Below the pieces are notes generated by a model that was not told the DNA's origin, ran no database searches, and saw nothing but the letters and a program-made list of their open reading frames with translations. The position numbers were made by a program, and so were the translations under genes. A DNA stretch of 64,000 bases from Escherichia coli (GTDB taxonomy: Bacteria > Pseudomonadota > Gammaproteobacteria > Enterobacterales > Enterobacteriaceae): NCBI RefSeq assembly GCF_001677475.2, contig NZ_CP015229.1; one strand, written 5' to 3'. This document shows positions 5,728 to 51,289 of the stretch, one piece after another (position 1 is the stretch's first letter; every line of letters starts with the position of its first letter).

Positions 5728-5756
5728 GTTATGTTATGTTATGTTATGTTATGTTA
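5728..5756. repeat. Pentanucleotide tandem repeat (ATGTT)x5 with flanking partial units
   Basis: gtt atgtt atgtt atgtt atgtt atgtt a read directly at 5728-5756, inside the 934-bp lrhA-alaA intergenic region. Confidence 0.9.
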
Positions 5757-28954: not shown

Positions 28955-29443
28955 TTACGCTCTGGGCAAGAAACTTGACGAGCTTTGCAGATAATCAAAA
29001 AACCATCTGATGATAAAACTGAACTGCGGGATTAGCTGTGATTTGCTCCAGTCTTCGCTTTTCGACACCCCGGTAAAGGAGTCGAGAAAGAAGAGAATGG
29101 CGGCAACAATCAACACACCGCGCAACGCACCGAAACAGACGCCCAGCACCCGATCGGTGCCTGACAACCCCGTTTTCTCCACCAACTGGCCTATCACGAA
29201 GTTCACGATAGCACCAACAATCAGGGTAGCGATAAACAGTACCGCGATGGCAATCCCATTTCGAACCAGTTCGTCTTCAAAGCCCGTAAACCAGACTGAC
29301 AGGTAAGTGTAGTAATGACTGGCAACAAAGAAAGCACAACCCCATGTCACCAGCGATAACGCTTCACGAACAAAGCCGCGGATCAGGCTAACCAGAGAGG
29401 AAAAAGCAATCACCGCGATTATGGCGTAATCAATCCAGACCAT
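28955..29443 (-). CDS. cvpA: Colicin V production membrane protein
   Basis: 162-aa hydrophobic ORF, first gene of cvpA-purF-ubiX. Confidence 0.93.
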   Translation of the reverse strand: MVWIDYAIIAVIAFSSLVSLIRGFVREALSLVTWGCAFFVASHYYTYLSVWFTGFEDELVRNGIAIAVLFIATLIVGAIVNFVIGQLVEKTGLSGTDRVLGVCFGALRGVLIVAAILFFLDSFTGVSKSEDWSKSQLIPQFSFIIRWFFDYLQSSSSFLPRA

Positions 29444-29500
29444 ATGTGTCCCACGATTTTACGCCCTGTCATCCTGTTCGGGGCGCATTCTAACAGAAAA

Positions 29501-29516
29501 AGAAAACGTTTGCGTA
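29501..29516 (-). promoter_or_regulatory. PurR operator (PUR box) upstream of cvpA-purF
   Basis: Plus strand agaaaacgtttgcgta; reverse complement tACGCAAACGTTTTCT matches the 16-bp PurR consensus; about 60 bp upstream of cvpA start. Confidence 0.75.
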
Positions 29517-29604
29517 GGGATTTCCTTCCCGCGCATCAATAAAAATGGCGCTGAAAAAATATTCAACGCCATCGACTTTTTATGCCTTTGCGGCATCGTG
29601 CAAT

Positions 29605-29695
29605 GCGTGTCGGATGCGGCGTAAACGCCTTATCCGACCTACGGTTCTACCCCTGCGTAGGCCTGATAAGACGCGCCAGCATCGCATCAGGCAAG
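29605..29695. repeat. BIME: two inverted REP elements
   Basis: tgtcggatgcggcgtaaacgccttatccgacctac and gtaggcctgataagacgcgccagcatcgcatcaggc read directly between dedD stop and the cvpA promoter. Confidence 0.85.
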
Positions 29696-29701
29696 ACCGT
29701 A

Positions 29702-30364
29702 TTAATTCGGCGTATAGCCCATTACCACGCCACTTAAGCCAGAAAGTTGCTTCAACTCACCCAGCGAACCTTTCAGCTTATCTTTCGAGGCATCCGGCCC
29801 AACCAGAATACGGGTAATTTTACCCTGCACTGGCGTGGATGGCGACGTATAAACCCGATAACCGGCACCGCGCAGCTTACCGACAATCTCATTCACTTTA
29901 TCGGCATTTTTCAGCGCACCCAGTTGCACAACATAGGCTTTACCCGTCGGTGCAGCTTTTTCTTCCACGACCGGCTTCGGTTCTGGCTTCGGCGCAGGTG
30001 GTGCTTCAACCTTTGGTTTAGGCGGCTCCACCGGTTTCGGCTTCGGTGGGGCGACCGGTGCAGGTTCCGGTTCAAACTCGGTGTTATTGGCTGCAATAGT
30101 GGCCGGATCGAGCGACGGTGCTGCGGCATCACCTGCCCGCACCTCTTCCGCTGCGCCTTCCGGCGGCTGCGTCGGCAACGCCTGGGTGGCGGCTGGCATC
30201 ATATCAGGCTCATCGCGATCGCCCGCTTTTGGAACCAGCGGGATAGCCGCAAACTCATCCTGATAATGTTTTTTCTGCCCGTCCAGAAGCCCTGGAAGTA
30301 CAATCACCCCCAGCGCCACCAGCACGATCGTGCCCACTAACCGATTCTGAAACTTACTTGCCAC
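29702..30364 (-). CDS. dedD: Cell-division protein DedD (SPOR domain)
   Basis: ORF track 29702-30382 begins at a TTG; the in-frame GTG at 30362-30364 gives MASKFQNRLVGTIVLVALG (220 aa); proline-rich linker and C-terminal SPOR-like region; overlaps folC 3' end by 11 nt. Confidence 0.85.
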   Translation of the reverse strand: MASKFQNRLVGTIVLVALGVIVLPGLLDGQKKHYQDEFAAIPLVPKAGDRDEPDMMPAATQALPTQPPEGAAEEVRAGDAAAPSLDPATIAANNTEFEPEPAPVAPPKPKPVEPPKPKVEAPPAPKPEPKPVVEEKAAPTGKAYVVQLGALKNADKVNEIVGKLRGAGYRVYTSPSTPVQGKITRILVGPDASKDKLKGSLGELKQLSGLSGVVMGYTPN

Positions 30365-31655
30365 CGCTTCTCCTCGCGTCAATCACTTCCATGACATGTG
30401 CGACCGTGTGGAAAGAACCACACACCAGCACGGTGTCTTCCGCTTTAGCGTCCGCCATTGCGGCATCCCATGCCTGCGCAACGCTATCAAATGATTTGCC
30501 GTTACCCAAATGCTCAAGCAGTTGTTCTGCCGTGGCACCGCGCGGCCCTTCCAGTGGCGCACAATACCAGTCATCAACCACGCTTTTCAACCAGGCCAGA
30601 GTTCCGGCAATATCTTTATCATGTAGCATACCGATAACCGCCAGCACGCGCCCGTTTTTCGGTAGCGCTTTCATACGCCCGGTGAGATATTCCGCCGCAT
30701 GTGGATTATGCGCGACATCAAAAATAACGCGAGGCGACTCGCTCACAATCTGGAAACGTCCCGGCAAAATTGCGCTGGCAATCCCGTCGCGAATGGCAGT
30801 TTCACTGACCTCCAGCCCGCTGGCACGCAGTGCCGCCAGCGCCGTTGCGGCATTCGGTTGTGGGACAAGCGGCAACGGCAGGTTTTCCAGCGTGCCGTGA
30901 GCATCGCTAAACGCCCAGTCATGATCGGTGACGGAATAGTTCCACTCAACGCCCCGACGTTGTAACAGTGCACCTTTTTCCTGCGCCACATCAGCAATGG
31001 TAGAAGGCATTTCCGGCTCACCGACAATTGCCGGTTTTTCGCTGCGAAAGATGCCTGCTTTCTCGCGACCAATGCTTTCGCGATCTGGCCCCAGCCAGTC
31101 AGTATGATCCAGCGCAATGCTGGTCACCACAGCCACATCAGCATCGACAATATTGGTGGCATCCAGACGACCACCCAGCCCCACTTCCAGAATTACCACA
31201 TCAAGTTGCGCCTGTTTAAACAGCCACAGAGCCGACAACGTGCCGTATTCAAAATAGGTCAGGGAAATATCACCGCGTGCCGATTCAATCTCAGCAAAAG
31301 AGGCGGTGTGAGCCGATTCAATCTCAGCAAAAGAGGCGGTGTGAGCCGATTCCGGCAATTCCTGGCCCTGCACACGAACGCGCTCGGTATAACGCACCAG
31401 ATGAGGCGAACTGTAGACGCCCACTTTGTACCCTGCCACCATCAGAATCGACTCCAGCGTACGGCAGGTGGTGCCTTTGCCATTCGTACCCGCAACGGTA
31501 AACACAAATGGCGCTGGTTTCAGAACGCCAAGACGCGCCGCGACCTGGCTCACGCGCTCAAGGCCGAGATCGATAGTTTTACTGTGCAGGTTTTCCAGAT
31601 AAGAAAGCCACGAAGCCAAAGGCGACGCGGCTTGAGGTGTGCGTTTGATAATCAT
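30354..31655 (-). CDS. folC: Dihydrofolate synthase / folylpolyglutamate synthase, carrying an 11-codon in-frame tandem duplication
   Basis: 433-aa ORF with Mur-ligase P-loop (TVAGTNGKGTT); contains ..SAHTASFAEIESAHTASFAEIES.. from the 33-bp duplication. Confidence 0.92.
   Translation of the reverse strand: MIIKRTPQAASPLASWLSYLENLHSKTIDLGLERVSQVAARLGVLKPAPFVFTVAGTNGKGTTCRTLESILMVAGYKVGVYSSPHLVRYTERVRVQGQELPESAHTASFAEIESAHTASFAEIESARGDISLTYFEYGTLSALWLFKQAQLDVVILEVGLGGRLDATNIVDADVAVVTSIALDHTDWLGPDRESIGREKAGIFRSEKPAIVGEPEMPSTIADVAQEKGALLQRRGVEWNYSVTDHDWAFSDAHGTLENLPLPLVPQPNAATALAALRASGLEVSETAIRDGIASAILPGRFQIVSESPRVIFDVAHNPHAAEYLTGRMKALPKNGRVLAVIGMLHDKDIAGTLAWLKSVVDDWYCAPLEGPRGATAEQLLEHLGNGKSFDSVAQAWDAAMADAKAEDTVLVCGSFHTVAHVMEVIDARRSGGK
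31279..31344. repeat. Perfect 2 x 33-bp tandem duplication inside folC
   Basis: gccgattcaatctcagcaaaagaggcggtgtga at 31279-31311 and again at 31312-31344, followed by an 8-bp partial copy gccgattc at 31345-31352. Confidence 0.95.
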
Positions 31656-31682
31656 GGTATCCGCTGATTCATTACGGGGATA

Positions 31683-31711
31683 ATAGCAAAAGGGCAGAGC
31701 CAGTGGCCCTG
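31683..31711 (-). terminator. Hairpin in accD-folC spacer (possible attenuator)
   Basis: agggcag-agccagtggcc-ctgccct inverted repeat followed on the minus strand by ttttgct. Confidence 0.4.
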
Positions 31712-31724
31712 CCCTTATCAGTTA

Positions 31725-32639
31725 TCAGGCCTCAGGTTCCTGATCCGGTACCGGGGGTACCACTACGCCTTCACGCGGCGCTTCAGGATTCGGCGCTGGC
31801 AGATTCATCAACTTCGCCAGAATGCTCGCCAGTTTCAGGCGCATTTCCGGACGACGGACGATCATGTCGATCGCGCCTTTCTCGATCAGGAATTCACTGC
31901 GCTGGAATCCTGGCGGCAGTTTTTCGCGAACGGTCTGTTCGATAACACGCGGACCGGCAAAGCCGATTAACGCTTTCGGTTCAGCGATGTTGAGATCGCC
32001 CAGCATGGCGAAACTTGCAGAAACACCGCCCATCGTCGGGTCGGTCAGCACGGAGATGTACGGCAAGCCGCGCTCCTGCATTTTTGCCAGTGCCGCAGAG
32101 GTTTTCGCCATCTGCATCAGCGACATCAGTGCTTCCTGCATACGTGCGCCACCAGAGGCGGAGAAGCAGATCAGCGGGCAGTTATCTTCCAGCGCCTGCT
32201 CAACGGCACGCACGAAACGTGCACCCACAACAGACCCCATTGAACCGCCCATAAAGGCGAACTCGAATGCCGCAGCGACAACCGGCATTCCATACAGAGT
32301 GCCTTTCATCACCACCAGCGCATCTTTTTCGCCGGTTTCTTTCTGCGCAGATGCCAGACGGTCTTTATACTTCTTGGAGTCACGAAACTTCAGCACATCT
32401 TTCGGCTCAAGCTCGCTACCCAGCTCCACAAGGCTTCCTTCATCTAACAGGCTATGCAGGCGATTACGCGCTGTCATACGCATGTGATGGTCACACTTCG
32501 GACAGACCTCAAGATTACGTTCCAGCTCAGCGCGGTATAAAACCTGACCGCAGCTATCACACTTAGTCCACACCCCTTCAGGAATGCTCGCCTTGCGGGT
32601 GGGAGTAATGTTGCTTTTAATTCGTTCAATCCAGCTCAT
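31725..32639 (-). CDS. accD: Acetyl-CoA carboxylase carboxyltransferase beta subunit
   Basis: ORF track extends to 32723; the ATG at 32637-32639 gives [10 protein letters not shown] and the Zn-finger CDSCGQ...CPKCDHH; 304 aa. Confidence 0.95.
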
Positions 32640-32794
32640 TAGGGACCTTTCTGTCTGAACCTGGTTCGATGCCAGTTTTATCTTTGGGGACGCATAATGC
32701 CATTTTTGCCCCCAACAGACCATGAATGTTGCACATTAAAACATAACAGCCCGAAACTTTGGATAAAAAAGTGGTCGAACCGCGGAGTTACTTT

Positions 32795-33454
32795 TTATTT
32801 TGCGGCGCGTGCCGCAGCGCGTTTGTGACGGATTATTTCGATGACGCCCGGCAAAATAGAAACCACAATAATCCCGACGATCAGCAGCTTAAGGTTATCC
32901 TGAACCATCGGGATTGTACCGAAGAAATAGCCTGCGTAGGTAAAAAGCAGTACCCACAACAGTGCGCCGATCACGTTATAAGCAGCGAAATGACGGTACG
33001 ACATGTGGCCCATTCCCGCAACAAACGGGGCGAACGTTCTGACGATCGGCACAAAACGGGCGAGAATAATCGTTTTGCCGCCATGTTTCTCATAAAACTG
33101 ATGGGTTTTGTCGAGATAACTGCGACGGAAAATTTTCGAATTGGGATTACTGAATAACTTTTCACCGAACAACCGCCCGATAGTGTAATTGACCGCGTCA
33201 CCCACAATCGCGGCGATCAGCATCAGCACCACCATCATATGGACGTTGAGATCGTTGGTTTCCAGTGATGCCAACGCTCCGGCAACAAACAGCAATGAAT
33301 CACCCGGTAAAAACGGCGTTACCACCAGACCGGTTTCACAGAACAAAATTAAGAACAAAATGGCATAAACCCAGACGCCGTACTCCGCGACCAGCTCTGC
33401 CAGATGCACGTCAATGTGCAGGATAAAATCGATGAGGAAATAAATCAGGTCCAT
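32795..33454 (-). CDS. dedA: DedA-family inner-membrane protein
   Basis: 219-aa polytopic ORF with DedA/SNARE-associated motifs. Confidence 0.92.
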
Positions 33455-33536
33455 ATTTGCCTATGCCTTGTACTCGTCATCTTTCAGGCTGTAACTACGT
33501 TGGCTACAGCCTGAAATGTTCCGAGCATTATTCTTG

Positions 33537-34349
33537 TTAGTCCGCCAGAAATAGCGGGCCCATTGGCGGTTTTGGAAGATCATACCGGTCAGGGTAATCC
33601 ACCGCGACCAGATACAGCCCTTCCGCTTTTGCCGTTGCTGCCGCCAGCGTTCTGTCCTTTGCCGCCAGCAACTCTGCTATCCAGCTCTCCGGCTGGTTGT
33701 GGGCACCGACTTCCATCAGGCTGCCGACAATATTCCTGACCATATGATGTACAAAGGCATTCGCTTTGATATCTACCACCACATAAGGACCGTGACGCGA
33801 GACATTAATATGCATAACGTTGCGCCACGGGGTTCGGGACTGACACTGCACCGCACGGAACGAGGTGAAATCATTCTCGCCCAGCAAGCATTGCGCAGCC
33901 CGATGCATCCGTTCAGCGTCCAGCGGTTCGTAAAAATGGGTTACCCCTTTACTCAGTACCGCCGGGCGCAGCCGATGATTGTAGATGATGTAGCGATAAC
34001 GGCGAGCCGTGGCGCTAAATCGGGCATGAAAATCATCAGGTACAGCTTTAACCCAACGCACGGCGATGTCACCAGGTAAATTCGCATTTACGCCCAACGT
34101 CCACGCAGCGTCTTTGCGCTGCGCGGTCGTTTCGAAATGCACAACCTGCCCGGTGCCGTGTACACCTGCGTCAGTACGCCCGGCGCAGAAGACGGTGATC
34201 GGTTCGTTCGCCACCTGGGAGAGCGCCTTTTCCAGCTTCTCCTGCACACTGCGGACTTCGTTCTGCCGTTGCCAGCCGTAATACTTACTGCCGTCGTACT
34301 CAATGCCCAGCGCAATTTTATAAACTGGCGGTTGTTGCTGGTCGGACAT
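33537..34349 (-). CDS. truA: tRNA pseudouridine(38-40) synthase
   Basis: 270-aa ORF with catalytic RTDAGVHG motif. Confidence 0.95.
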
Positions 34350-35362
34350 TAGTACAGATACTCCTGCACCAGTTTCTCGGCGATTTTTACTGCCATCAGC
34401 GCGCCGCCAAAGCGAACGTTATCAGCCACCGACCAGAACTGGACTTGCTCCGGCATACCGTAGTCATTACGCACACAGCCCACAGAAAGATGCGGCGTAC
34501 CCGAAGCATCCCCTACCTGAGTCGGGAATTCGTTCTCTTCAGAGAGCACAATATCTTCGCCCTGAGAAAACGCATCACGCGCTTCTTCTGCCGCCAGCGG
34601 ACGCAGTGCTTCAAAGTTGACCATCTGGGCATGACCGTAGAATACCGGTGCCTGGACGACGCTTGCCGAAATCATCAGCCCTTCGTCCTGCAGGATTTTG
34701 CGTACTTCGTCAACGATACGACGTTCTTCACGCACGCTACCTTCGCTATCCGGCAGTAACGGCAGCATGTTGAACGCCAGCTGACGCCCGAAGAAATCTT
34801 CTTCGTCAATCGGAATGCCGTTGAGCAATTTAGCACTCTGCCCCGCTAACGCATCGACCGCTTTTTTGCCCTGGGCGGAGGCTGAAATCAGGCTGGTAAC
34901 GCTGATACGTGATAAACCGCCCTGATCGATTAACGGTTTCAGTGCCGCCAGCAACTGGCTGGTCAGACTGTCCGGTACGGCGATGACATTCCGGTTGCGG
35001 TAATCGGTCAGTACAAACGGGTTTACTTCCGGCACCACCAGCGGTACGTCGGGTTCGAGAGCAAACAGTCCGCTGCTGTCGATCACCAGGCAACCTGAGT
35101 TGGTCGCTTCTTCAACCCAGGCAGCGGTAGCTTCTTTGCCTGCGACAAAAAATGCCAGCTGCGCCTGCGTCCAGTCAAATTCAGCGGCATCCTGCACGGT
35201 GATTGTCTTACCACCAAAGCGCAATTGTTCGCCTGCGCTTTCGTTACGTGCCAGTGCATAAATTTCCCCAACCGGGAACTGACGTTCAGCCAGCGTTTCA
35301 AGCAGGGCTTCGCCCACAGCGCCAGTTGCGCCCAGGACGGCAATGTTCCAGCCTTCAGACAT
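34349..35362 (-). CDS. usg: USG-1 protein (aspartate-semialdehyde dehydrogenase paralogue)
   Basis: 337-aa ORF with N-terminal NAD-binding motif VLGATGAVG; stop overlaps truA start. Confidence 0.92.
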
Positions 35363-35427
35363 GGTGGTTTACTCCAGAAATAGCAAAGCTCCCTGCCAAT
35401 GTTACAGCAGAGAGCATGAAGAAGAGA

Positions 35428-36564
35428 TTAACGTGCCGGATGATGAACGGCGTTAAAACCCAGTTTACACAGCAATGATGCCGCACTGGCGTCATCACAA
35501 ATTACATACAGAGATGACCATTCACGGCGCTCAAGATAGTTTTTGCGCAGTTTATCGAACTCACCCGGTATCCCGGCGACTTTACGCAGCGGTGCGTCAT
35601 CGCGTCGCACATCATACACCAAATGCACCAGCCTTTTCAGCGTCGGTTGATCGAGCGGACCATGCAGCGTAATGCGGCCAAACTCTGGCGCGGGCAGCAA
35701 CGTATCCAGCGCAACGTGTTGTTCATGCCCAATAAACTTGCTATAGGCTTCAAACACTTGCGTCGTGCCACGCGCTTTACCTTCCAGGGTATAACCTGCG
35801 ATATGCGGCGTGCCGATATCCACTTTTTTCAGCAGCTCGACGTTGAGTTCTGGCTCGCCTTCCCAGACATCCAGCACTACGCTTAACTGCTGGCCTTCAT
35901 TCAGGCAGGTCAGCAGCGCAGTATTATCGACGACTGCGCCACGGCAGGCGTTAATCAGAATCGCTCCCGGCTTCAGGCTACGGATCAGTTTTTCATCCGC
36001 CAGATGCAGCGTTTTGTACGGCCCGTCTTTGAAGAGTGGCGTATGGAAAGTCAGAATATCCGCATGCTGAACTAATTCATCCAGCGAGCGGAAATCACCC
36101 TCATCCCCACGGTCAGCGCGAGGCGGATCGCAAAGCAAGGTTTTAATCCCTAACGCTTCCAGTCGCGCCTGCAATCGACGTCCAACGTTACCAACGCCCA
36201 CGATCCCCACCGTACGGTTGTGCAGTGAAAATCCATCGCGTTCGGCAAGCATCAGTAGTGAGGAGAGAACATATTCCACCACCGCAATCGCATTACAGCC
36301 TGGTGCCGCAGAAAAACCAATTCCCGCCTGCTTTAACCATGCTTCATCGACATGGTCGGTCCCCGCTGTGGCAGTACCAACAAATTTAATGGGTTTTCCT
36401 GCCAGCAAAGATTCATTCACTTTCGTGACCGAACGCACCATCAGTGCATCCGCGTCTGCCAGTTGAGCGACGGGGATTGGACGCCCGGGAACCGCGGTCA
36501 CCTCACCCAAACGGCTAAATAAGTCGCGGGCATAAGGCATATTTTCATCAACAAGGATTTTCAC
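35428..36564 (-). CDS. pdxB: Erythronate-4-phosphate dehydrogenase
   Basis: 378-aa D-2-hydroxyacid dehydrogenase-family ORF (GIVGVGNVG). Confidence 0.95.
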
Positions 36565-36662
36565 GTTTGTGTTACCTGTATGAGACGAGAGTTAACCGGA
36601 CAAGTGTGCCATAATCTCGCGGCCAGGCATACTTGCGAAGATTTCAGGTATAAGGATACGTA

Positions 36663-38836
<2,174 letters not shown>

Positions 38837-47328: not shown

Positions 47329-47880
47329 ATGAAAAAGAAAACAACACTCAGCGAGGAGGATCAGGCACTGTTTCGCCAGTTGATGGCGGGTACTCGCAAA
47401 ATTAAGCAGGACACGATTGTCCATCGTCCACAACGAAAGAAAGTCAGCGAAGTGCCGGTCAAGCGGTTGATTCAGGAGCAGGCGGATGCCAGCCATTATT
47501 TTTCCGATGAGTTTCAGCCGTTATTAAATACCGAAGGTCCGGTGAAATATGTTCGCCCGGATGTGAGTCATTTTGAGGCGAAGAAACTGCGCCGTGGCGA
47601 TTATTCGCCGGAGCTGTTTTTGGATCTGCATGGTCTGACGCAACTTCAGGCCAAACAAGAGCTAGGCGCGTTGATTGCCGCCTGCCGCCGTGAACATGTA
47701 TTTTGCGCCTGTGTGATGCATGGTCACGGGAAGCATATTTTGAAGCAGCAAACGCCGCTGTGGCTGGCGCAACATCCGCATGTCATGGCGTTTCACCAGG
47801 CACCGAAAGAGTATGGTGGCGACGCGGCGTTGCTGGTGTTGATTGAAGTGGAAGAGTGGCTGCCGCCAGAATTGCCCTGA
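47329..47880 (+). CDS. smrB: Smr-domain ribosome-rescue endonuclease
   Basis: 183-aa ORF with C-terminal Smr domain (LDLHGLT...HGHGKHIL). Confidence 0.9.
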
Positions 47881-48100
47881 ATGACAACAACCGGATATAG
47901 AATTTGCAGGTCGGATAAGATGCGCCAGCATTGCATCCGACAAGAAATGCCGGATGCGGCGTGAACACCTTATCCAGCCTACGCAAGACTGAATGACAAC
48001 AACCGGATATGGAATTTGTAGGTCGGATAAGATGCGTCAGCATCGCATCCGACAAAAAGTGCCGGATGCGGCGTAAACGCCATATCCTGCCTGGGCGCTA
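47881..48100. repeat. Tandemly duplicated BIME block (2 x about 112 bp, each with an inverted REP pair)
   Basis: Units starting atgacaacaaccggatat at 47881 and 47993 align end to end with a few substitutions; each contains ggtcggataagatgcg...gcatccgac and gccggatgcggcgt... Confidence 0.85.
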
Positions 48101-48964
48101 CAGCATATTCAATACATACTGGAATCGGCAGGTGGAGTCTATGGGCTGCCTGCTACTGGTATCAACACGTACTAACATATCGTGCAGTTGTCGATCGGTA
48201 ATAGGGTGCTGCGTTGGCGCCACAGTCACTTTAGCGTCATCACATCCTTCAGCAGTAAAGGTAATCAACTGATTTACAAAGCGACAATACGCGCCGCGTT
48301 CATCCATTTTACTGCCATCGCAGAGCTGACCATCTTTCATCAGGTAGGTCGATAAGTTTTGTTCAATCACTGACCCTGTTGATTTCAGATTCAAAACCTT
48401 ACTGTGTTCAACACGGCTGTCACTCCAGGAGATATCATAATTTGTTAATGGCTCACCTGGGCAGGTTGTTGTATAGGTTGTAGGCCCCCTATAATATTCA
48501 ACTCTCGGTTGATAATTATAATATACAGTATCAGTACTGTTCGCCGTCATCCCCACCATCCACGGACACGTCTCTGCCGAACCGTTGACCTCTATGGTCA
48601 TGACAACATCGGAGCATCTCCAGTTGAAATTGGGATCAATCTCTTTAACACCCGGACAATGGGAATCTTGTGTATAATCGCTCGAGCGGACTGTGATTTT
48701 GGGGGCTGGAATATTTCCCGGCCCGGTCCATGAATGATTAGGAAGATCCCCATACTTGACGCCATGGTCGGTATTTTGATAGTACACCCCATGATAAACC
48801 CCATTGGTAGTGAGTAAATCAAGGTAGAATTGAAGCGTTGCATTTCCGGCAATCGTACCATAGTAGACTGTCACATTATTATAGACTGCCCCCAGTTTCG
48901 CCTGAGCTCCCTGGCTAAAGAACAGCACCAGCATGGCGCAAAGCAGTAATCGTATTTTTTTCAT
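48098..48964 (-). CDS. yfcO: Fimbrial-operon-associated exported protein (DUF2544)
   Basis: ORF with signal peptide MKKIRLLLCAMLVLFFSQGAQA; start chosen at 48962-48964 (ORF track allows 48979). Confidence 0.78.
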   Translation of the reverse strand: MKKIRLLLCAMLVLFFSQGAQAKLGAVYNNVTVYYGTIAGNATLQFYLDLLTTNGVYHGVYYQNTDHGVKYGDLPNHSWTGPGNIPAPKITVRSSDYTQDSHCPGVKEIDPNFNWRCSDVVMTIEVNGSAETCPWMVGMTANSTDTVYYNYQPRVEYYRGPTTYTTTCPGEPLTNYDISWSDSRVEHSKVLNLKSTGSVIEQNLSTYLMKDGQLCDGSKMDERGAYCRFVNQLITFTAEGCDDAKVTVAPTQHPITDRQLHDMLVRVDTSSRQPIDSTCRFQYVLNML

Positions 48965-48965
48965 C

Positions 48966-49505
48966 TTATATATACTCAAAGGTTGCCGTCAGGTTGGCGG
49001 TAAAATCACCGAGCGTGACATCGCGACCGCTTTTCGCCTGCAGCCAGGCCCTGAAATGAATATCATTACTTCCATCGCTGAGCGTAAATTTCGCCCCTGT
49101 CGGGTTGTTAATTGCCACCCGCACACCATCGATCGTTTCCATCCCAATTCCGACGCCCTGAGCGGTTGAAGTGGTATCCAGCGCGAGGAAACCCGGCTGT
49201 TCGCTGTCTTCCGTACCGGTAAGGGTCACCTGCACCTGGTAACTCGCCGGCCCCTTGCAATCTTTTAGCTTAAACACCACCGGAACGTGCGGGGATTCCC
49301 CTGCGACCATAAGATCCTGACGACTGATGGCAGGAAAATGCACTTCTGCCAGATTTCCGCCATCAACCACCAGCGTGCAGGAACGGCTTAATAAGTTGCC
49401 TGAAAAATGCAGGTTGTTATCCACGGCCAGGGCACAAGTGCCACCGGTCAACAGCAGCCCCGCTAACAGCGCGTAGCCGAACGAATAAATGCGTCCTGTC
49501 TTCAT
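48966..49505 (-). CDS. yfcP: Fimbrial-like subunit
   Basis: 179-aa ORF with signal peptide and fimbrial subunit Cys pair. Confidence 0.85.
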   Translation of the reverse strand: MKTGRIYSFGYALLAGLLLTGGTCALAVDNNLHFSGNLLSRSCTLVVDGGNLAEVHFPAISRQDLMVAGESPHVPVVFKLKDCKGPASYQVQVTLTGTEDSEQPGFLALDTTSTAQGVGIGMETIDGVRVAINNPTGAKFTLSDGSNDIHFRAWLQAKSGRDVTLGDFTANLTATFEYI

Positions 49506-49990
49506 TGATAATCCACCCGTAATGTTGCATAGGCCGAAAACGTGGTATCACTCAACACCGCATCAGCCGATTTCACCGGCACAGCTTCCAGCTTCGGCTT
49601 TTGCGTAAAATCGGTGGCGTTAATGGCAAGCGGCGTATTCAGCTTAAAACGCTGACCATCGTGCCGAAGCTCAATACCAAAACCGGGAACATCTGTTTCG
49701 ATAGCCGAGTCGTTATACGTGGTCTGCGTACCCGTCCATGTGAGCGTCATAATCCAGTCGGGCTCGCGTACTGCGGAGTCACAGCTCAGGTCATAGTTCA
49801 CTTCCCTGCGACCATAATCCCCGTTGATGCTGTCGATGATAAGATCGCGAAATTCCACTTCAATGGTCTTTCCCTCGCTAATGGTACAGGCTGGAGGTGA
49901 CACCAGCGTACCGTGAAAGGTGATGTCTTCATTTGCTGCCAGAGCCACGCCGCCACAGATGCAGAGTAAAAGTAATGAGAGTTTTTTCAC
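49502..49990 (-). CDS. yfcQ: Fimbrial-like subunit
   Basis: 162-aa ORF with signal peptide; 4-bp overlap with yfcP. Confidence 0.85.
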   Translation of the reverse strand: MKKLSLLLLCICGGVALAANEDITFHGTLVSPPACTISEGKTIEVEFRDLIIDSINGDYGRREVNYDLSCDSAVREPDWIMTLTWTGTQTTYNDSAIETDVPGFGIELRHDGQRFKLNTPLAINATDFTQKPKLEAVPVKSADAVLSDTTFSAYATLRVDYQ

Positions 49991-50502
49991 TGGTAATCCA
50001 CCACCATCGTCATACTGGCGTTAAATTCCGCTGGCGTAAGCTGCACTCCGCTCTGTTTTACCGGCACCGCTTTGAGACTGGGCAACTGGTTAACATTGAA
50101 ATCAGACCAGTTACCTTCACCCACTTTAAACAGGGTGTTATCGGCACCGTTTTCAATGCGGATACCCAGGCCTGAAATTTGCGTCGCAATGACCGTTTCC
50201 CCGTTAATCACGGTGGTGGAGCCTTTAAGCTGCATCCGCAGATCATCAACACCTGATGCCTTGTTACCGCAGTTCAGGGTATAAAGCGCCCCCGTCGTAC
50301 GGTAATTTGTGCCATTGATTTTGCTAATGTACACATTGCCAAATTCAACATTGCTCCCCTTCACGGAACAGGGCGGTGGCCCATCCACCAGAACGCGCAA
50401 CGTTAATAACACCGGTTTACTTTCTCCCGCGACGGCCATGTTGCCCGTCAGCCAGCCGCTCAGGAGAAAAATGCCCGTTCCCACCAGAAACGTGTATTTC
50501 AT
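49987..50502 (-). CDS. yfcR: Fimbrial-like subunit
   Basis: 171-aa ORF with signal peptide; 4-bp overlap with yfcQ. Confidence 0.85.
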   Translation of the reverse strand: MKYTFLVGTGIFLLSGWLTGNMAVAGESKPVLLTLRVLVDGPPPCSVKGSNVEFGNVYISKINGTNYRTTGALYTLNCGNKASGVDDLRMQLKGSTTVINGETVIATQISGLGIRIENGADNTLFKVGEGNWSDFNVNQLPSLKAVPVKQSGVQLTPAEFNASMTMVVDYQ

Positions 50503-50517
50503 AAGACTCTCCCGGCA

Positions 50518-51270
50518 TCAGCCTTTGCGGCTCTGCTCTGCATCCACCTGGCAACTATTGCCGTTGCATTTAAAGATCAGCGAAAGTCGCGCGCCGTAGT
50601 CGTTGACGTAAGTCAGCACCGGCACACTGTCCATCTTCACATTCAGCGGTGCGGATGTTTTCGGCGGCATTACCAGCGGCGTAAATCCGGCTGCCGGATT
50701 ACCATTTTTCTGGGTACTGGCGTTGCTGAGGATCACGTAATACGGCGTTGGGTTATTAACGGTGAAGGCCTGCCCATTGCGGGTTAAAGTCACCTTGTGC
50801 TGCCACGGATCTCTCATGTTGATTTCTGCCAGCGCCTTCGGTCGCCAGAACAGTTTGATACGCGTTTGCAGAGCAATTTGCAGGGTGTTCGGTTTGTTCG
50901 ATTTTGGCGGGATTTCACGCACGTTAAAGTAGAACATGCTCTCACGATCGGCAGGTAACTTGCTGATATCCGGCATTCCCTGGACTTTTACCTGACCATT
51001 CATCATCGCATCAATGCGCTGTACCGGCGGCAGAACCGTCAATGGCGAACTGATTTTGTTGCCCTTTTCGTCTTCTATCCAGCTTTGCGCCAGATATGGC
51101 AGCTTAGGGTCGTTATTGCGCAACGTGACGCTGATGGATTTGTCACTTTCTTTGAAGATCAGGCGGGTGCGGTCGGGCGTTACCGATGCGTGGGTTGTAA
51201 AACTGGCGGCGGTCACCAGCAGCGCCAGCGCCGGGGCAACCATTTTTGCGGTATTAGTCTGTGTATACAT
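50518..51270 (-). CDS. yfcS: Periplasmic fimbrial chaperone (PapD-like)
   Basis: 250-aa ORF with signal peptide and PapD-family core. Confidence 0.9.
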   Translation of the reverse strand: MYTQTNTAKMVAPALALLVTAASFTTHASVTPDRTRLIFKESDKSISVTLRNNDPKLPYLAQSWIEDEKGNKISSPLTVLPPVQRIDAMMNGQVKVQGMPDISKLPADRESMFYFNVREIPPKSNKPNTLQIALQTRIKLFWRPKALAEINMRDPWQHKVTLTRNGQAFTVNNPTPYYVILSNASTQKNGNPAAGFTPLVMPPKTSAPLNVKMDSVPVLTYVNDYGARLSLIFKCNGNSCQVDAEQSRKG

Positions 51271-51289
51271 GGATCATTCCTTAATCACG

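What the first reader, a model, noticed from the sequence alone, without database searches (positions are those of the whole stretch)
31279..31352. Perfect in-frame 33-bp tandem duplication inside essential folC
The unit gccgattcaatctcagcaaaagaggcggtgtga occurs twice head to tail (31279-31311, 31312-31344), followed by an 8-bp partial third copy (gccgattc). It lies in the folC coding frame and inserts 11 residues, giving ..ELPESAHTASFAEIESAHTASFAEIESARGD.. and a 433-codon ORF where I recall K-12 FolC as 422 aa. The copies are identical and bounded by 8-bp microhomology, the signature of a recent slippage or unequal-exchange event rather than an ancient repeat. FolC is essential, so the insertion must be tolerated if real. 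It could be a strain allele, a selected variant, or an assembly artefact.
Basis: partly seen in the sequence, partly recalled or inferred. Interest (0 to 1): 0.6.

Follow-up and report, generated by a model that had tools for sequence, protein, structure and literature searches.

The report
Recurrent 33-bp in-frame duplication in folC
A real 33-base tandem duplication adds 11 amino acids to a helix of the essential folate enzyme FolC; it is an ordinary slippage mutation between two 8-base repeats, varies among near-identical E. coli isolates, has arisen at least twice, and appears to be tolerated.

Summary
Window 31279-31352 holds two perfect 33-bp copies plus an 8-bp third start, in frame in folC (433 instead of 422 codons), duplicating residues E102-I112.

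It is not an assembly artefact. The exact protein is on 14 NCBI contigs, and a variant differing only at residue 73 is on 8 more.

A sister allele on about 23 contigs is single-copy and differs from the window by 2 SNPs plus this indel over 11.3 kb. The duplication is therefore a recent polymorphism within one clone.

"Escherichia sp. R18", 2.4% divergent, carries the same duplication built from a different unit sequence, which indicates an independent origin.

The flanking GAATCGGC pair is the closest-spaced direct repeat of 8 bp or more in folC. This is the signature of microhomology-mediated tandem duplication.

The segment length is fixed in 140 of 146 diverse FolC sequences. Even so, AlphaFold predicts a preserved fold (TM 0.97 to 1W78): copy 2 forms the native helix and copy 1 loops out.

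The array abuts a ~240-bp patch imported from a divergent Escherichia lineage, but the patch also exists without the duplication.

Verdict: a new instance of a known mutation type, probably near-neutral, of modest interest.

The parts
31279..31352 (-). Tandem array: two perfect 33-bp copies plus an 8-bp third start. On the gene strand this is (GAATCGGCTCACACCGCCTCTTTTGCTGAGATT)x2 + GAATCGGC. It encodes ESAHTASFAEI twice (residues 102-112 and 113-123).
   Evidence: Both copies are identical and both carry the lineage-specific bases GGCT and GCT.
31345..31352 (-). Microhomology arm 1 (GAATCGGC on the gene strand; codons E102-S103-A104). The gene-5' boundary of the imported patch also falls in this interval.
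   Evidence: The last donor-type site is 31344 and the first E. coli-type site is 31353.
31312..31319 (-). Microhomology arm 2 (GAATCGGC): the new junction created by the duplication.
31279..31286 (-). Microhomology arm 3 (GAATCGGC), equivalent to codons E113-S114-A115 of the single-copy gene.
   Evidence: In single-copy alleles the two arms lie 33 nt apart, the closest-spaced direct repeat of 8 bp or more in folC.
30354..31655 (-). folC CDS, 433 codons plus stop: bifunctional dihydrofolate synthase / folylpolyglutamate synthase.
   Evidence: E = 3.4e-276 to PDB 1W78. The order accD-folC-dedD matches annotated E. coli. It is the only folC copy in the window.
31074..31344 (.). Mosaic patch: 21 consecutive informative sites match a divergent Escherichia lineage (metagenome contigs L084/L085 and CP089930.1 'E. 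coli E69') rather than E. coli. It is about 238 bp in single-copy form, and the tandem array lies at its gene-5' edge.
   Evidence: The patch is absent from all complete E. coli genomes searched (best identity 91.6%).
31438..31438 (-). SNP (T in the window, C in relatives) giving V73 instead of A73. It is derived and arose after the duplication.
   Evidence: L089 (duplicated, A73) differs from the window only at this base over 11.3 kb.
31725..32639 (-). accD, upstream neighbour (context only).
29702..30364 (-). dedD, downstream neighbour, overlapping the end of folC by 11 nt (context only).

Best explanation
This is a microhomology-mediated tandem duplication in folC.

In the single-copy gene, the 8-bp sequence GAATCGGC occurs twice, 33 nt apart (codons 102-104 and 113-115). 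Inferred: during replication the nascent strand slipped back from the second arm to the first and copied the 33-bp unit again.

Shown: the event happened recently inside one E. coli clone, after that clone's folC had acquired a ~240-bp recombination patch and before an A73V substitution. The same event happened independently in at least one unrelated Escherichia background.

Predicted: the protein gains 11 residues at the start of a 15-residue surface helix (102-116). The second copy, which continues into the conserved Arg and the pterin-pocket motif LTYFEY, takes the native helix position. The first copy forms a short helix extension plus a flexible loop, and the rest of the fold is unchanged.

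Inferred: the enzyme therefore stays functional and the allele is close to neutral.
For: Anatomy: two perfect copies plus three 8-bp arms. The arms pre-exist 33 nt apart in single-copy alleles. This pair is the closest-spaced direct repeat of 8 bp or more in the gene.

Reality: the exact 433-aa protein is on 14 NCBI contigs, including a 5.5-Mb chromosome. L003 is 100% identical to the window over 7.3 kb. An A73 version is on 8 contigs.

Recency and polymorphism: L091 (single copy, about 23 contigs) differs from the window by 2 SNPs plus the 33-bp indel over 11.3 kb, and L089 (duplicated) by 1 SNP. The more distant relative L092, which has the same patch, is single-copy, so one copy is the ancestral state.

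Recurrence: L090 (Escherichia sp. R18) has the duplication with both copies of E. coli type (GGCC/GCG), no patch, and 271 SNPs per 11.3 kb from the window. Its nearest single-copy relative, L093, is 34 SNPs away.

Tolerance: the ORF is intact. The duplicated lineage later fixed A73V in 14 sampled assemblies. The AlphaFold model has pLDDT 95.3 and pTM 0.94, with coil at 100-108 (10-residue block mean pLDDT 67) and a helix at 109-127. The de-duplicated control has a helix at 102-116 with pLDDT about 98. TM is 0.97 and rmsd 1.3 A to 1W78.

Known kind: such duplications dominate variable tandem duplications in bacteria and revert readily (bioRxiv 10.64898/2026.02.28.708716).
Against: No reads, PCR or enzyme data are available here.

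The segment length is strictly conserved in 140 of 146 diverse FolC sequences. None of 80 species representatives has an insertion. The duplication contains the nearly invariant F109. Some functional cost is therefore plausible.

The direction of change (1x to 2x rather than 2x to 1x in L091) rests on a single outgroup.

The AlphaFold choice of copy 2 as the native helix may be biased by where the aligner placed the gap.

Neutrality is inferred only from persistence in about 22 sampled assemblies of one clone.

I could not check whether these genomes carry a second folC elsewhere.
Confidence: 0.85

Rival explanations
1. The duplication is adaptive. The extra helix turns alter FolC activity, stability or antifolate handling (sulfonamide or trimethoprim exposure, folate-pool control), and the readily reversible duplication acts as a selectable on/off variant.
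For: The same rare event is found in two independent backgrounds. It has been retained although such duplications are reported to revert at high frequency. It lies in a strongly length-conserved helix that leads directly into the invariant F124-E125 motif. FolC substitutions change antifolate susceptibility in M. tuberculosis (PMC10812664 and PMC7809127).
Against: Recurrence is expected from the mutational hotspot alone. There are only about 23 contigs in a collection holding very many E. coli assemblies, and 0 of 4,314 testable complete genomes. Single-copy sisters are sampled as often as duplicated ones in the clone (23 vs 22 contigs). No phenotype data exist. No paper linking folC duplications to resistance was found.
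Confidence: 0.08
2. The duplication was created by the same recombination event that imported the ~240-bp foreign patch, for example by template switching or an out-of-register join at the GAATCGGC arm.
For: The gene-5' boundary of the patch falls inside the 8-bp arm at 31345-31352, flush with the array. By my rough estimate, such a coincidence has about a 1-4% chance if the two are independent.
Against: L091 and L092 carry the patch with a single copy, and the more distant L092 indicates that one copy is ancestral. R18 has the duplication without any patch. Both copies are donor-type, whereas an out-of-register join of recipient and donor would give one copy of each type. Three donor-lineage sequences are single-copy.
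Confidence: 0.04
3. It is an assembly or sequencing artefact.
For: None was found. This remains only as the generic concern about perfect tandem repeats.
Against: Twenty-three contigs from separate NCBI assemblies carry it, in three protein variants and two unit sequences. The 74-bp array is shorter than standard reads. Closely related assemblies differ cleanly in having one or two copies.
Confidence: 0.01
4. The allele is a crippled or inactive FolC, tolerated because of compensation elsewhere, such as a second folC copy, folate uptake or suppressor mutations.
For: The insertion is in a helix of invariant length. The model's confidence drops locally to about 67.
Against: The reading frame is intact and all 24 invariant family residues are retained. 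The predicted fold is preserved. The lineage persisted long enough to fix a later substitution. There is no second folC in the window. That folC is essential in E. coli is established knowledge, not something tested here.
Confidence: 0.04

Closest known systems
Microhomology-mediated tandem duplication (MTD), first described in fission yeast and reported across bacteria, archaea and fungi (bioRxiv 10.64898/2026.02.28.708716)
   Same: A short single-copy segment (33 bp, within the reported range of roughly 10-500 bp) is flanked by microhomology arms (8 bp) and duplicated head to tail, leaving three arms. One-copy and two-copy forms are polymorphic among close relatives. The event recurs at the same arm pair.
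   Different: Formation and reversion rates were not measured here. The event lies inside a length-invariant helix of an essential enzyme and has persisted in a natural clone.
Engineered tandem duplication of a helix in T4 lysozyme (Matthews laboratory; Yousef, Baase and Matthews 2004 PNAS, as listed in the references of PMC11848303; an earlier 1999 paper is recalled from memory only)
   Same: A helical segment is duplicated in tandem, so the protein must 'choose' which copy occupies the native site. The fold is kept and the other copy loops out, which is what AlphaFold predicts here.
   Different: That case was engineered and solved by crystallography. This one is natural, in a different fold (Mur-ligase-like FolC), and has only a predicted structure.
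84-bp in-frame duplication in rpoC selected in E. coli laboratory evolution (PMC5615307)
   Same: An in-frame tandem duplication inside an essential E. coli gene that leaves the protein functional.
   Different: The rpoC duplication arose under defined selection and has a demonstrated phenotype. No selection or phenotype is known for the folC duplication.
Short in-frame duplications in folP (dihydropteroate synthase) that confer sulfonamide resistance in streptococci and Neisseria (recalled from memory, not checked here)
   Same: Small in-frame duplications in a folate-pathway enzyme in natural isolates.
   Different: Those are 3-6 bp, lie in substrate-binding loops and have proven resistance. 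This one is 33 bp, in a different enzyme, at the start of a surface helix, with no known phenotype.
M. tuberculosis folC missense mutations that confer para-aminosalicylic acid resistance (PMC10812664, PMC7809127)
   Same: Natural variation in FolC that changes antifolate handling. The affected pocket includes the motif just downstream of this helix.
   Different: Those are point substitutions in the dihydropteroate pocket with measured effects, not an insertion.

Membership tests
Microhomology-mediated tandem duplication (MTD) | Head-to-tail duplication of a segment that is single-copy in close relatives | tested here: met
   The array has 2.2 perfect copies. L091 and L092 are single-copy and 2-78 SNPs away over 11.3 kb.
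Microhomology-mediated tandem duplication (MTD) | Identical microhomology arms at both ends of the segment in the single-copy allele, and three arms in the product | tested here: met
   GAATCGGC occurs at codons 102-104 and 113-115 in all single-copy E. coli alleles examined. There are three arms in the window.
Microhomology-mediated tandem duplication (MTD) | Segment length and arm length within the described range (about 10-500 bp; arms of 4 bp or more) | tested here: met
   The unit is 33 bp and the arms are 8 bp. The range is taken from the preprint.
Microhomology-mediated tandem duplication (MTD) | Recurrence and reversibility at the same site | tested here: inconclusive
   Independent recurrence is supported by R18, whose unit sequence differs in both copies. 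Reversion is not demonstrated. A 3x allele and the V73 single-copy form are not on record.
Microhomology-mediated tandem duplication (MTD) | Formation by replication slippage or lagging-strand processing rather than by homologous recombination | not testable with these tools
   This needs genetics (recA, polymerase or flap-processing mutants) or deep sequencing of cultures.
FolC, bifunctional dihydrofolate synthase / folylpolyglutamate synthase (Mur ligase superfamily) | Full-length sequence homology to characterised E. coli FolC | tested here: met
   E = 3.4e-276 to 1W78_A over residues 1-433, with one 11-residue gap.
FolC, bifunctional dihydrofolate synthase / folylpolyglutamate synthase (Mur ligase superfamily) | Conserved catalytic and nucleotide-binding residues retained (P-loop GTNGKG, F124-E125, and the other invariant positions) | tested here: met
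   All 24 invariant columns of the 146-sequence alignment are present in the window protein.
FolC, bifunctional dihydrofolate synthase / folylpolyglutamate synthase (Mur ligase superfamily) | Two-domain Mur-ligase-like fold | tested here: met
   The predicted model has TM 0.97 and rmsd 1.3 A to 1W78. This is a prediction only.
FolC, bifunctional dihydrofolate synthase / folylpolyglutamate synthase (Mur ligase superfamily) | Conserved genomic position accD-folC-dedD | tested here: met
FolC, bifunctional dihydrofolate synthase / folylpolyglutamate synthase (Mur ligase superfamily) | DHFS and FPGS enzymatic activity of the 433-residue variant | not testable with these tools
   This needs an enzyme assay or complementation.

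The most novel reading that the evidence does not exclude
The 33-bp duplication is a recurrently selected, readily reversible variant of FolC. It would tune dihydrofolate synthase or polyglutamylation activity, or antifolate susceptibility, giving E. coli lineages a slippage-driven on/off switch in folate metabolism.
Probability: 0.07. Interest if true: 0.55.

Novelty: new member of a known kind. Interest (0 to 1): 0.25.

Why it matters
The mutation type is ordinary. It is nonetheless a clean natural example of how much a length-invariant helix in an essential enzyme can absorb, since an 11-residue duplication survives in the wild.

It comes with a ready-made natural comparison: isolates that differ by 1-2 SNPs over the 11.3 kb compared, plus the duplication, and an independent second occurrence. 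That makes it a convenient test case for measuring formation and reversion rates of microhomology-mediated duplications in bacteria, and for comparing the fitness and kinetics of a duplicated helix.

For genome annotation, it shows that a 433-aa FolC is a genuine allele and not an error to be corrected.

Tried and rejected
1. A 58-nt junction query from the window against the complete E. coli genomes found nothing. This was uninformative: the window's unit carries two lineage SNPs, so no 28-nt exact seed exists. I replaced it with an E. coli-type 46-mer, which gave 0 of 4,314 genomes covering at least 80%.

2. A degenerate junction pattern was absent from the metagenome contigs.

3. The exact de-duplicated version of the window protein (V73/T275) is not on record. 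I first read this as 'no ancestor sampled'. That was corrected when the A73 single-copy allele turned up.

4. I considered an out-of-register recipient/donor join, and then a template-switch model linking the duplication to the recombination patch. I set both aside because single-copy patch-bearing relatives and a patch-less duplicated strain exist.

5. My first attempt at building revertant candidates used the wrong residue index. This was corrected before any look-up.

6. Exact look-ups found no record of the K-12 allele plus duplication, the reciprocal 11-codon deletion in the commonest allele, or a 3x allele.

7. Literature searches for a folC in-frame or tandem duplication found no description of this allele. 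The FolC structure paper (Mathieu 2005) and Zhao 2014 are not held, so I could not map the helix onto ligand contacts.

8. The Rfam scan of 30000-33000 on both strands gave only sub-threshold chance hits.

9. I could not identify the phylogroup or serotype of the source lineage, or name the donor species beyond its accessions.

Full report
**1. The observation**

Window 31279-31352 reads gccgattcaatctcagcaaaagaggcggtgtga twice, followed by gccgattc. Tandem Repeats Finder gives period 33, 2.2 copies, 100% identity and score 148. It is the only perfect long-period array in the 64-kb window. Forty-one matches at offset 33 cannot be chance (about 4^-41 per position).

The array lies in the minus-strand ORF 30354..31655, which has 433 codons. 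That ORF is folC by three criteria:
- It matches PDB 1W78_A (E. coli FolC, 422 aa) at E = 3.4e-276, with a single 11-residue gap.
- It sits between accD and dedD, as in annotated E. coli.
- It is the only folC in the window.

Against two reference folC genes the only length difference is one 33-nt gap. The duplicated residues are E102-I112, or equivalently S103-E113.

**2. It is real, and rare**

The exact 433-aa protein is on 14 NCBI contigs, including a 5.5-Mb chromosome (ANO90106.1). One draft contig, L003, is 100% identical to the window over 7.3 kb. The 74-bp array is shorter than ordinary reads. An assembly error is not credible.

The duplication is absent from every broader sample I checked:
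- 80 species-representative loci, all with 416-422 codons.
- 145 diverse FolC representatives.
- The metagenome contigs.
- The complete E. coli genomes: the 40 best rows all span 239 nt against a 271-nt query. With an E. coli-type junction 46-mer, 0 of 4,314 genomes that could be tested cover more than the 31 nt expected for one copy.

**3. Origin**

In single-copy alleles GAATCGGC occurs at codons 102-104 and again at 113-115. This is the closest-spaced direct repeat of 8 bp or more in the gene. Two copies plus three arms is the defining product of microhomology-mediated tandem duplication. That mechanism is reported to dominate variable tandem duplications in bacteria and to revert readily (bioRxiv 10.64898/2026.02.28.708716). 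Slippage as the mechanism is inferred, not shown.

**4. Population context**

This was the most informative part of the analysis. I tested revertant candidates by exact look-up and found relatives:

| Allele | FolC variant | Copies | Contigs | Difference from window over 11.3 kb |
|---|---|---|---|---|
| Window type | V73 | 2 | 14 | none |
| L089 (P0244) | A73 | 2 | 8 | 1 SNP (31438, A73V) |
| L091 (P0243) | A73 | 1 | about 23 | 2 SNPs plus the 33-bp indel |
| L092 | A73 | 1 | 1 | 78 SNPs (same patch) |
| L090, "Escherichia sp. R18" (P0246) | A73/N275 | 2 | 1 | 271 SNPs |

Because the more distant L092 is single-copy, the ancestral state is one copy. A73 is ancestral and V73 derived. The order of events is therefore: patch import, then duplication, then A73V.

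R18 carries the same duplication in an ordinary folC. Both of its copies have the E. coli-type bases GGCC/GCG, where the window has GGCT/GCT. It has no patch. Its nearest single-copy relative, L093, is 34 SNPs away. Transfer of the duplication between lineages would have carried the unit sequence with it, so an independent origin is the parsimonious reading.

Four related alleles are not on record: the K-12 allele plus duplication, a 3x allele, the reciprocal 11-codon deletion in the commonest allele, and the V73 single-copy form.

**5. Mosaic context**

This folC is a mosaic. Among 736 sites that distinguish E. coli (L002) from metagenome contig L084 over window 29406-38000, the only long donor-type run is 21 consecutive sites at 31074-31344. 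It is flanked by E. coli-type sites at 31041-31053 and 31353-31371.

The donor lineage is represented by L084, L085 and CP089930.1 ('E. coli E69', a separate species representative). These are 97.6-99% identical to each other and about 7-9% diverged from the window outside the patch. No complete E. coli genome has the patch; the best identity is 91.6%.

The gene-5' boundary of the patch falls inside the outermost 8-bp arm, so the array is flush with a recombination junction. I considered a causal link. I rank it low for three reasons:
- The patch exists with one copy (L091, L092).
- The duplication exists without the patch (R18).
- Both copies are donor-type, which a simple out-of-register join would not give.

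**6. Consequence for the protein**

The segment is unusually length-constrained. In 140 of 146 diverse FolC sequences there are exactly 23 residues between R92 and R116; the window protein has 34. The few natural length variants have insertions at the C-terminal end of the helix, not helix duplications. F109 and R116 are nearly invariant, and F124 and E125 just downstream are invariant.

The AlphaFold models compare as follows:

| Model | Overall confidence | Helix | Local detail |
|---|---|---|---|
| De-duplicated control | pLDDT 96.4 | 102-116 | pLDDT about 98 |
| Variant | pLDDT 95.3, pTM 0.94 | 109-127 | residues 100-108 coil; 10-residue block 101-110 averages pLDDT 67 |

The variant model superposes on 1W78 at TM 0.97 and rmsd 1.3 A. 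The predicted solution is that copy 2 takes the native place, because it alone continues into S-A-R116-G-D. Copy 1 adds about one helical turn plus a loop.

Two caveats apply. The aligner placed the gap opposite copy 1, which may bias this choice. I also had no coordinates from which to measure distances to the ligands.

**7. Function and selection**

Nothing here shows a phenotype. Three facts argue for near-neutrality: the reading frame is intact, the predicted fold is preserved, and the duplicated sub-clade persisted through a later substitution despite the reported ease of reversion. The strict length conservation of the helix argues that some cost is possible. Recurrence is explained by the hotspot and does not need selection. 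An adaptive, reversible-switch reading remains possible at about 7%.

**8. Comparison and verdict**

This is a new instance of a known mutation class. It resembles engineered helix duplications in T4 lysozyme and the in-frame rpoC duplication of PMC5615307. It is unlike the folP duplications and the M. tuberculosis folC point mutations, which have proven drug phenotypes. I found no paper describing this allele, although the proteins are in public databases.

The added findings are within-clone polymorphism, independent recurrence, the recombination patch and the structural prediction. Interest is modest.

Noticed in passing
window 31074-31344: A ~240-bp segment of folC derives from a divergent Escherichia lineage (closest to metagenome contig Ga0209547_100002 and CP089930.1 'E. 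coli E69'). It is absent from all 5,426 complete E. coli genomes searched. Its gene-5' boundary coincides with the outermost 8-bp arm of the duplication.
   Followed up: yes
window 39001-62334: The right-hand part of the window is far more divergent from every complete E. coli genome than the left part. The fabB-smrB housekeeping block is at best 95.9% identical, and patchy (1% to 11% divergence per 500 bp). The yfc-type fimbrial operon at 48097-54613 is about 87% identical, and sixA-fadL is about 92%. By comparison, window 1-25000 is 98.7% identical. The lineage looks broadly mosaic, with imports from other Escherichia.
   Followed up: partly
window 31619-31681: A second short run of 5 donor-type sites spans the folC start codon and the accD-folC intergenic region. 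It may be another small import from the same donor lineage.
   Followed up: no
L092 (GCA_040939905.1), folC gene positions ~37-260: A relative with the same patch carries an additional donor-type tract covering the 5' part of folC. The same locus has therefore been hit by more than one import from this donor lineage.
   Followed up: partly
window 31438 (FolC residue 73): A73V occurs both in the duplicated clone and in unrelated single-copy E. coli alleles (L093-L096). It is therefore either a recurrent or a recombining polymorphism. Whether it compensates for the duplication is unknown.
   Followed up: partly
window 62395-62434: A perfect (TTGATA)x6.7 repeat lies in frame in an AT-rich 430-codon ORF (61926-63218, + strand) and encodes a run of Asp-Ile dipeptides (FDIDIDIDIDIDIE). 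The alignment to E. coli F1053 breaks at this repeat, which suggests the copy number varies between strains.
   Followed up: partly
window 47877-48092: A 112-bp tandem repeat (1.9 copies, 90% identity) lies between smrB and the fimbrial operon. It contains sequence that looks like REP/BIME elements (GCCGGATGCGGCG).
   Followed up: no
window 5728-5756: A perfect pentanucleotide microsatellite, (GTTAT)x5.8, lies in the lrhA-alaA intergenic region.
   Followed up: no
protein cluster seen: The 90%-identity cluster holding this FolC (8,888 members) also contains AccD proteins, and another cluster mixes DedD with FolC. This is probably caused by fused gene calls across the overlapping or adjacent genes. 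Cluster-level names and counts for these proteins are unreliable.
   Followed up: no
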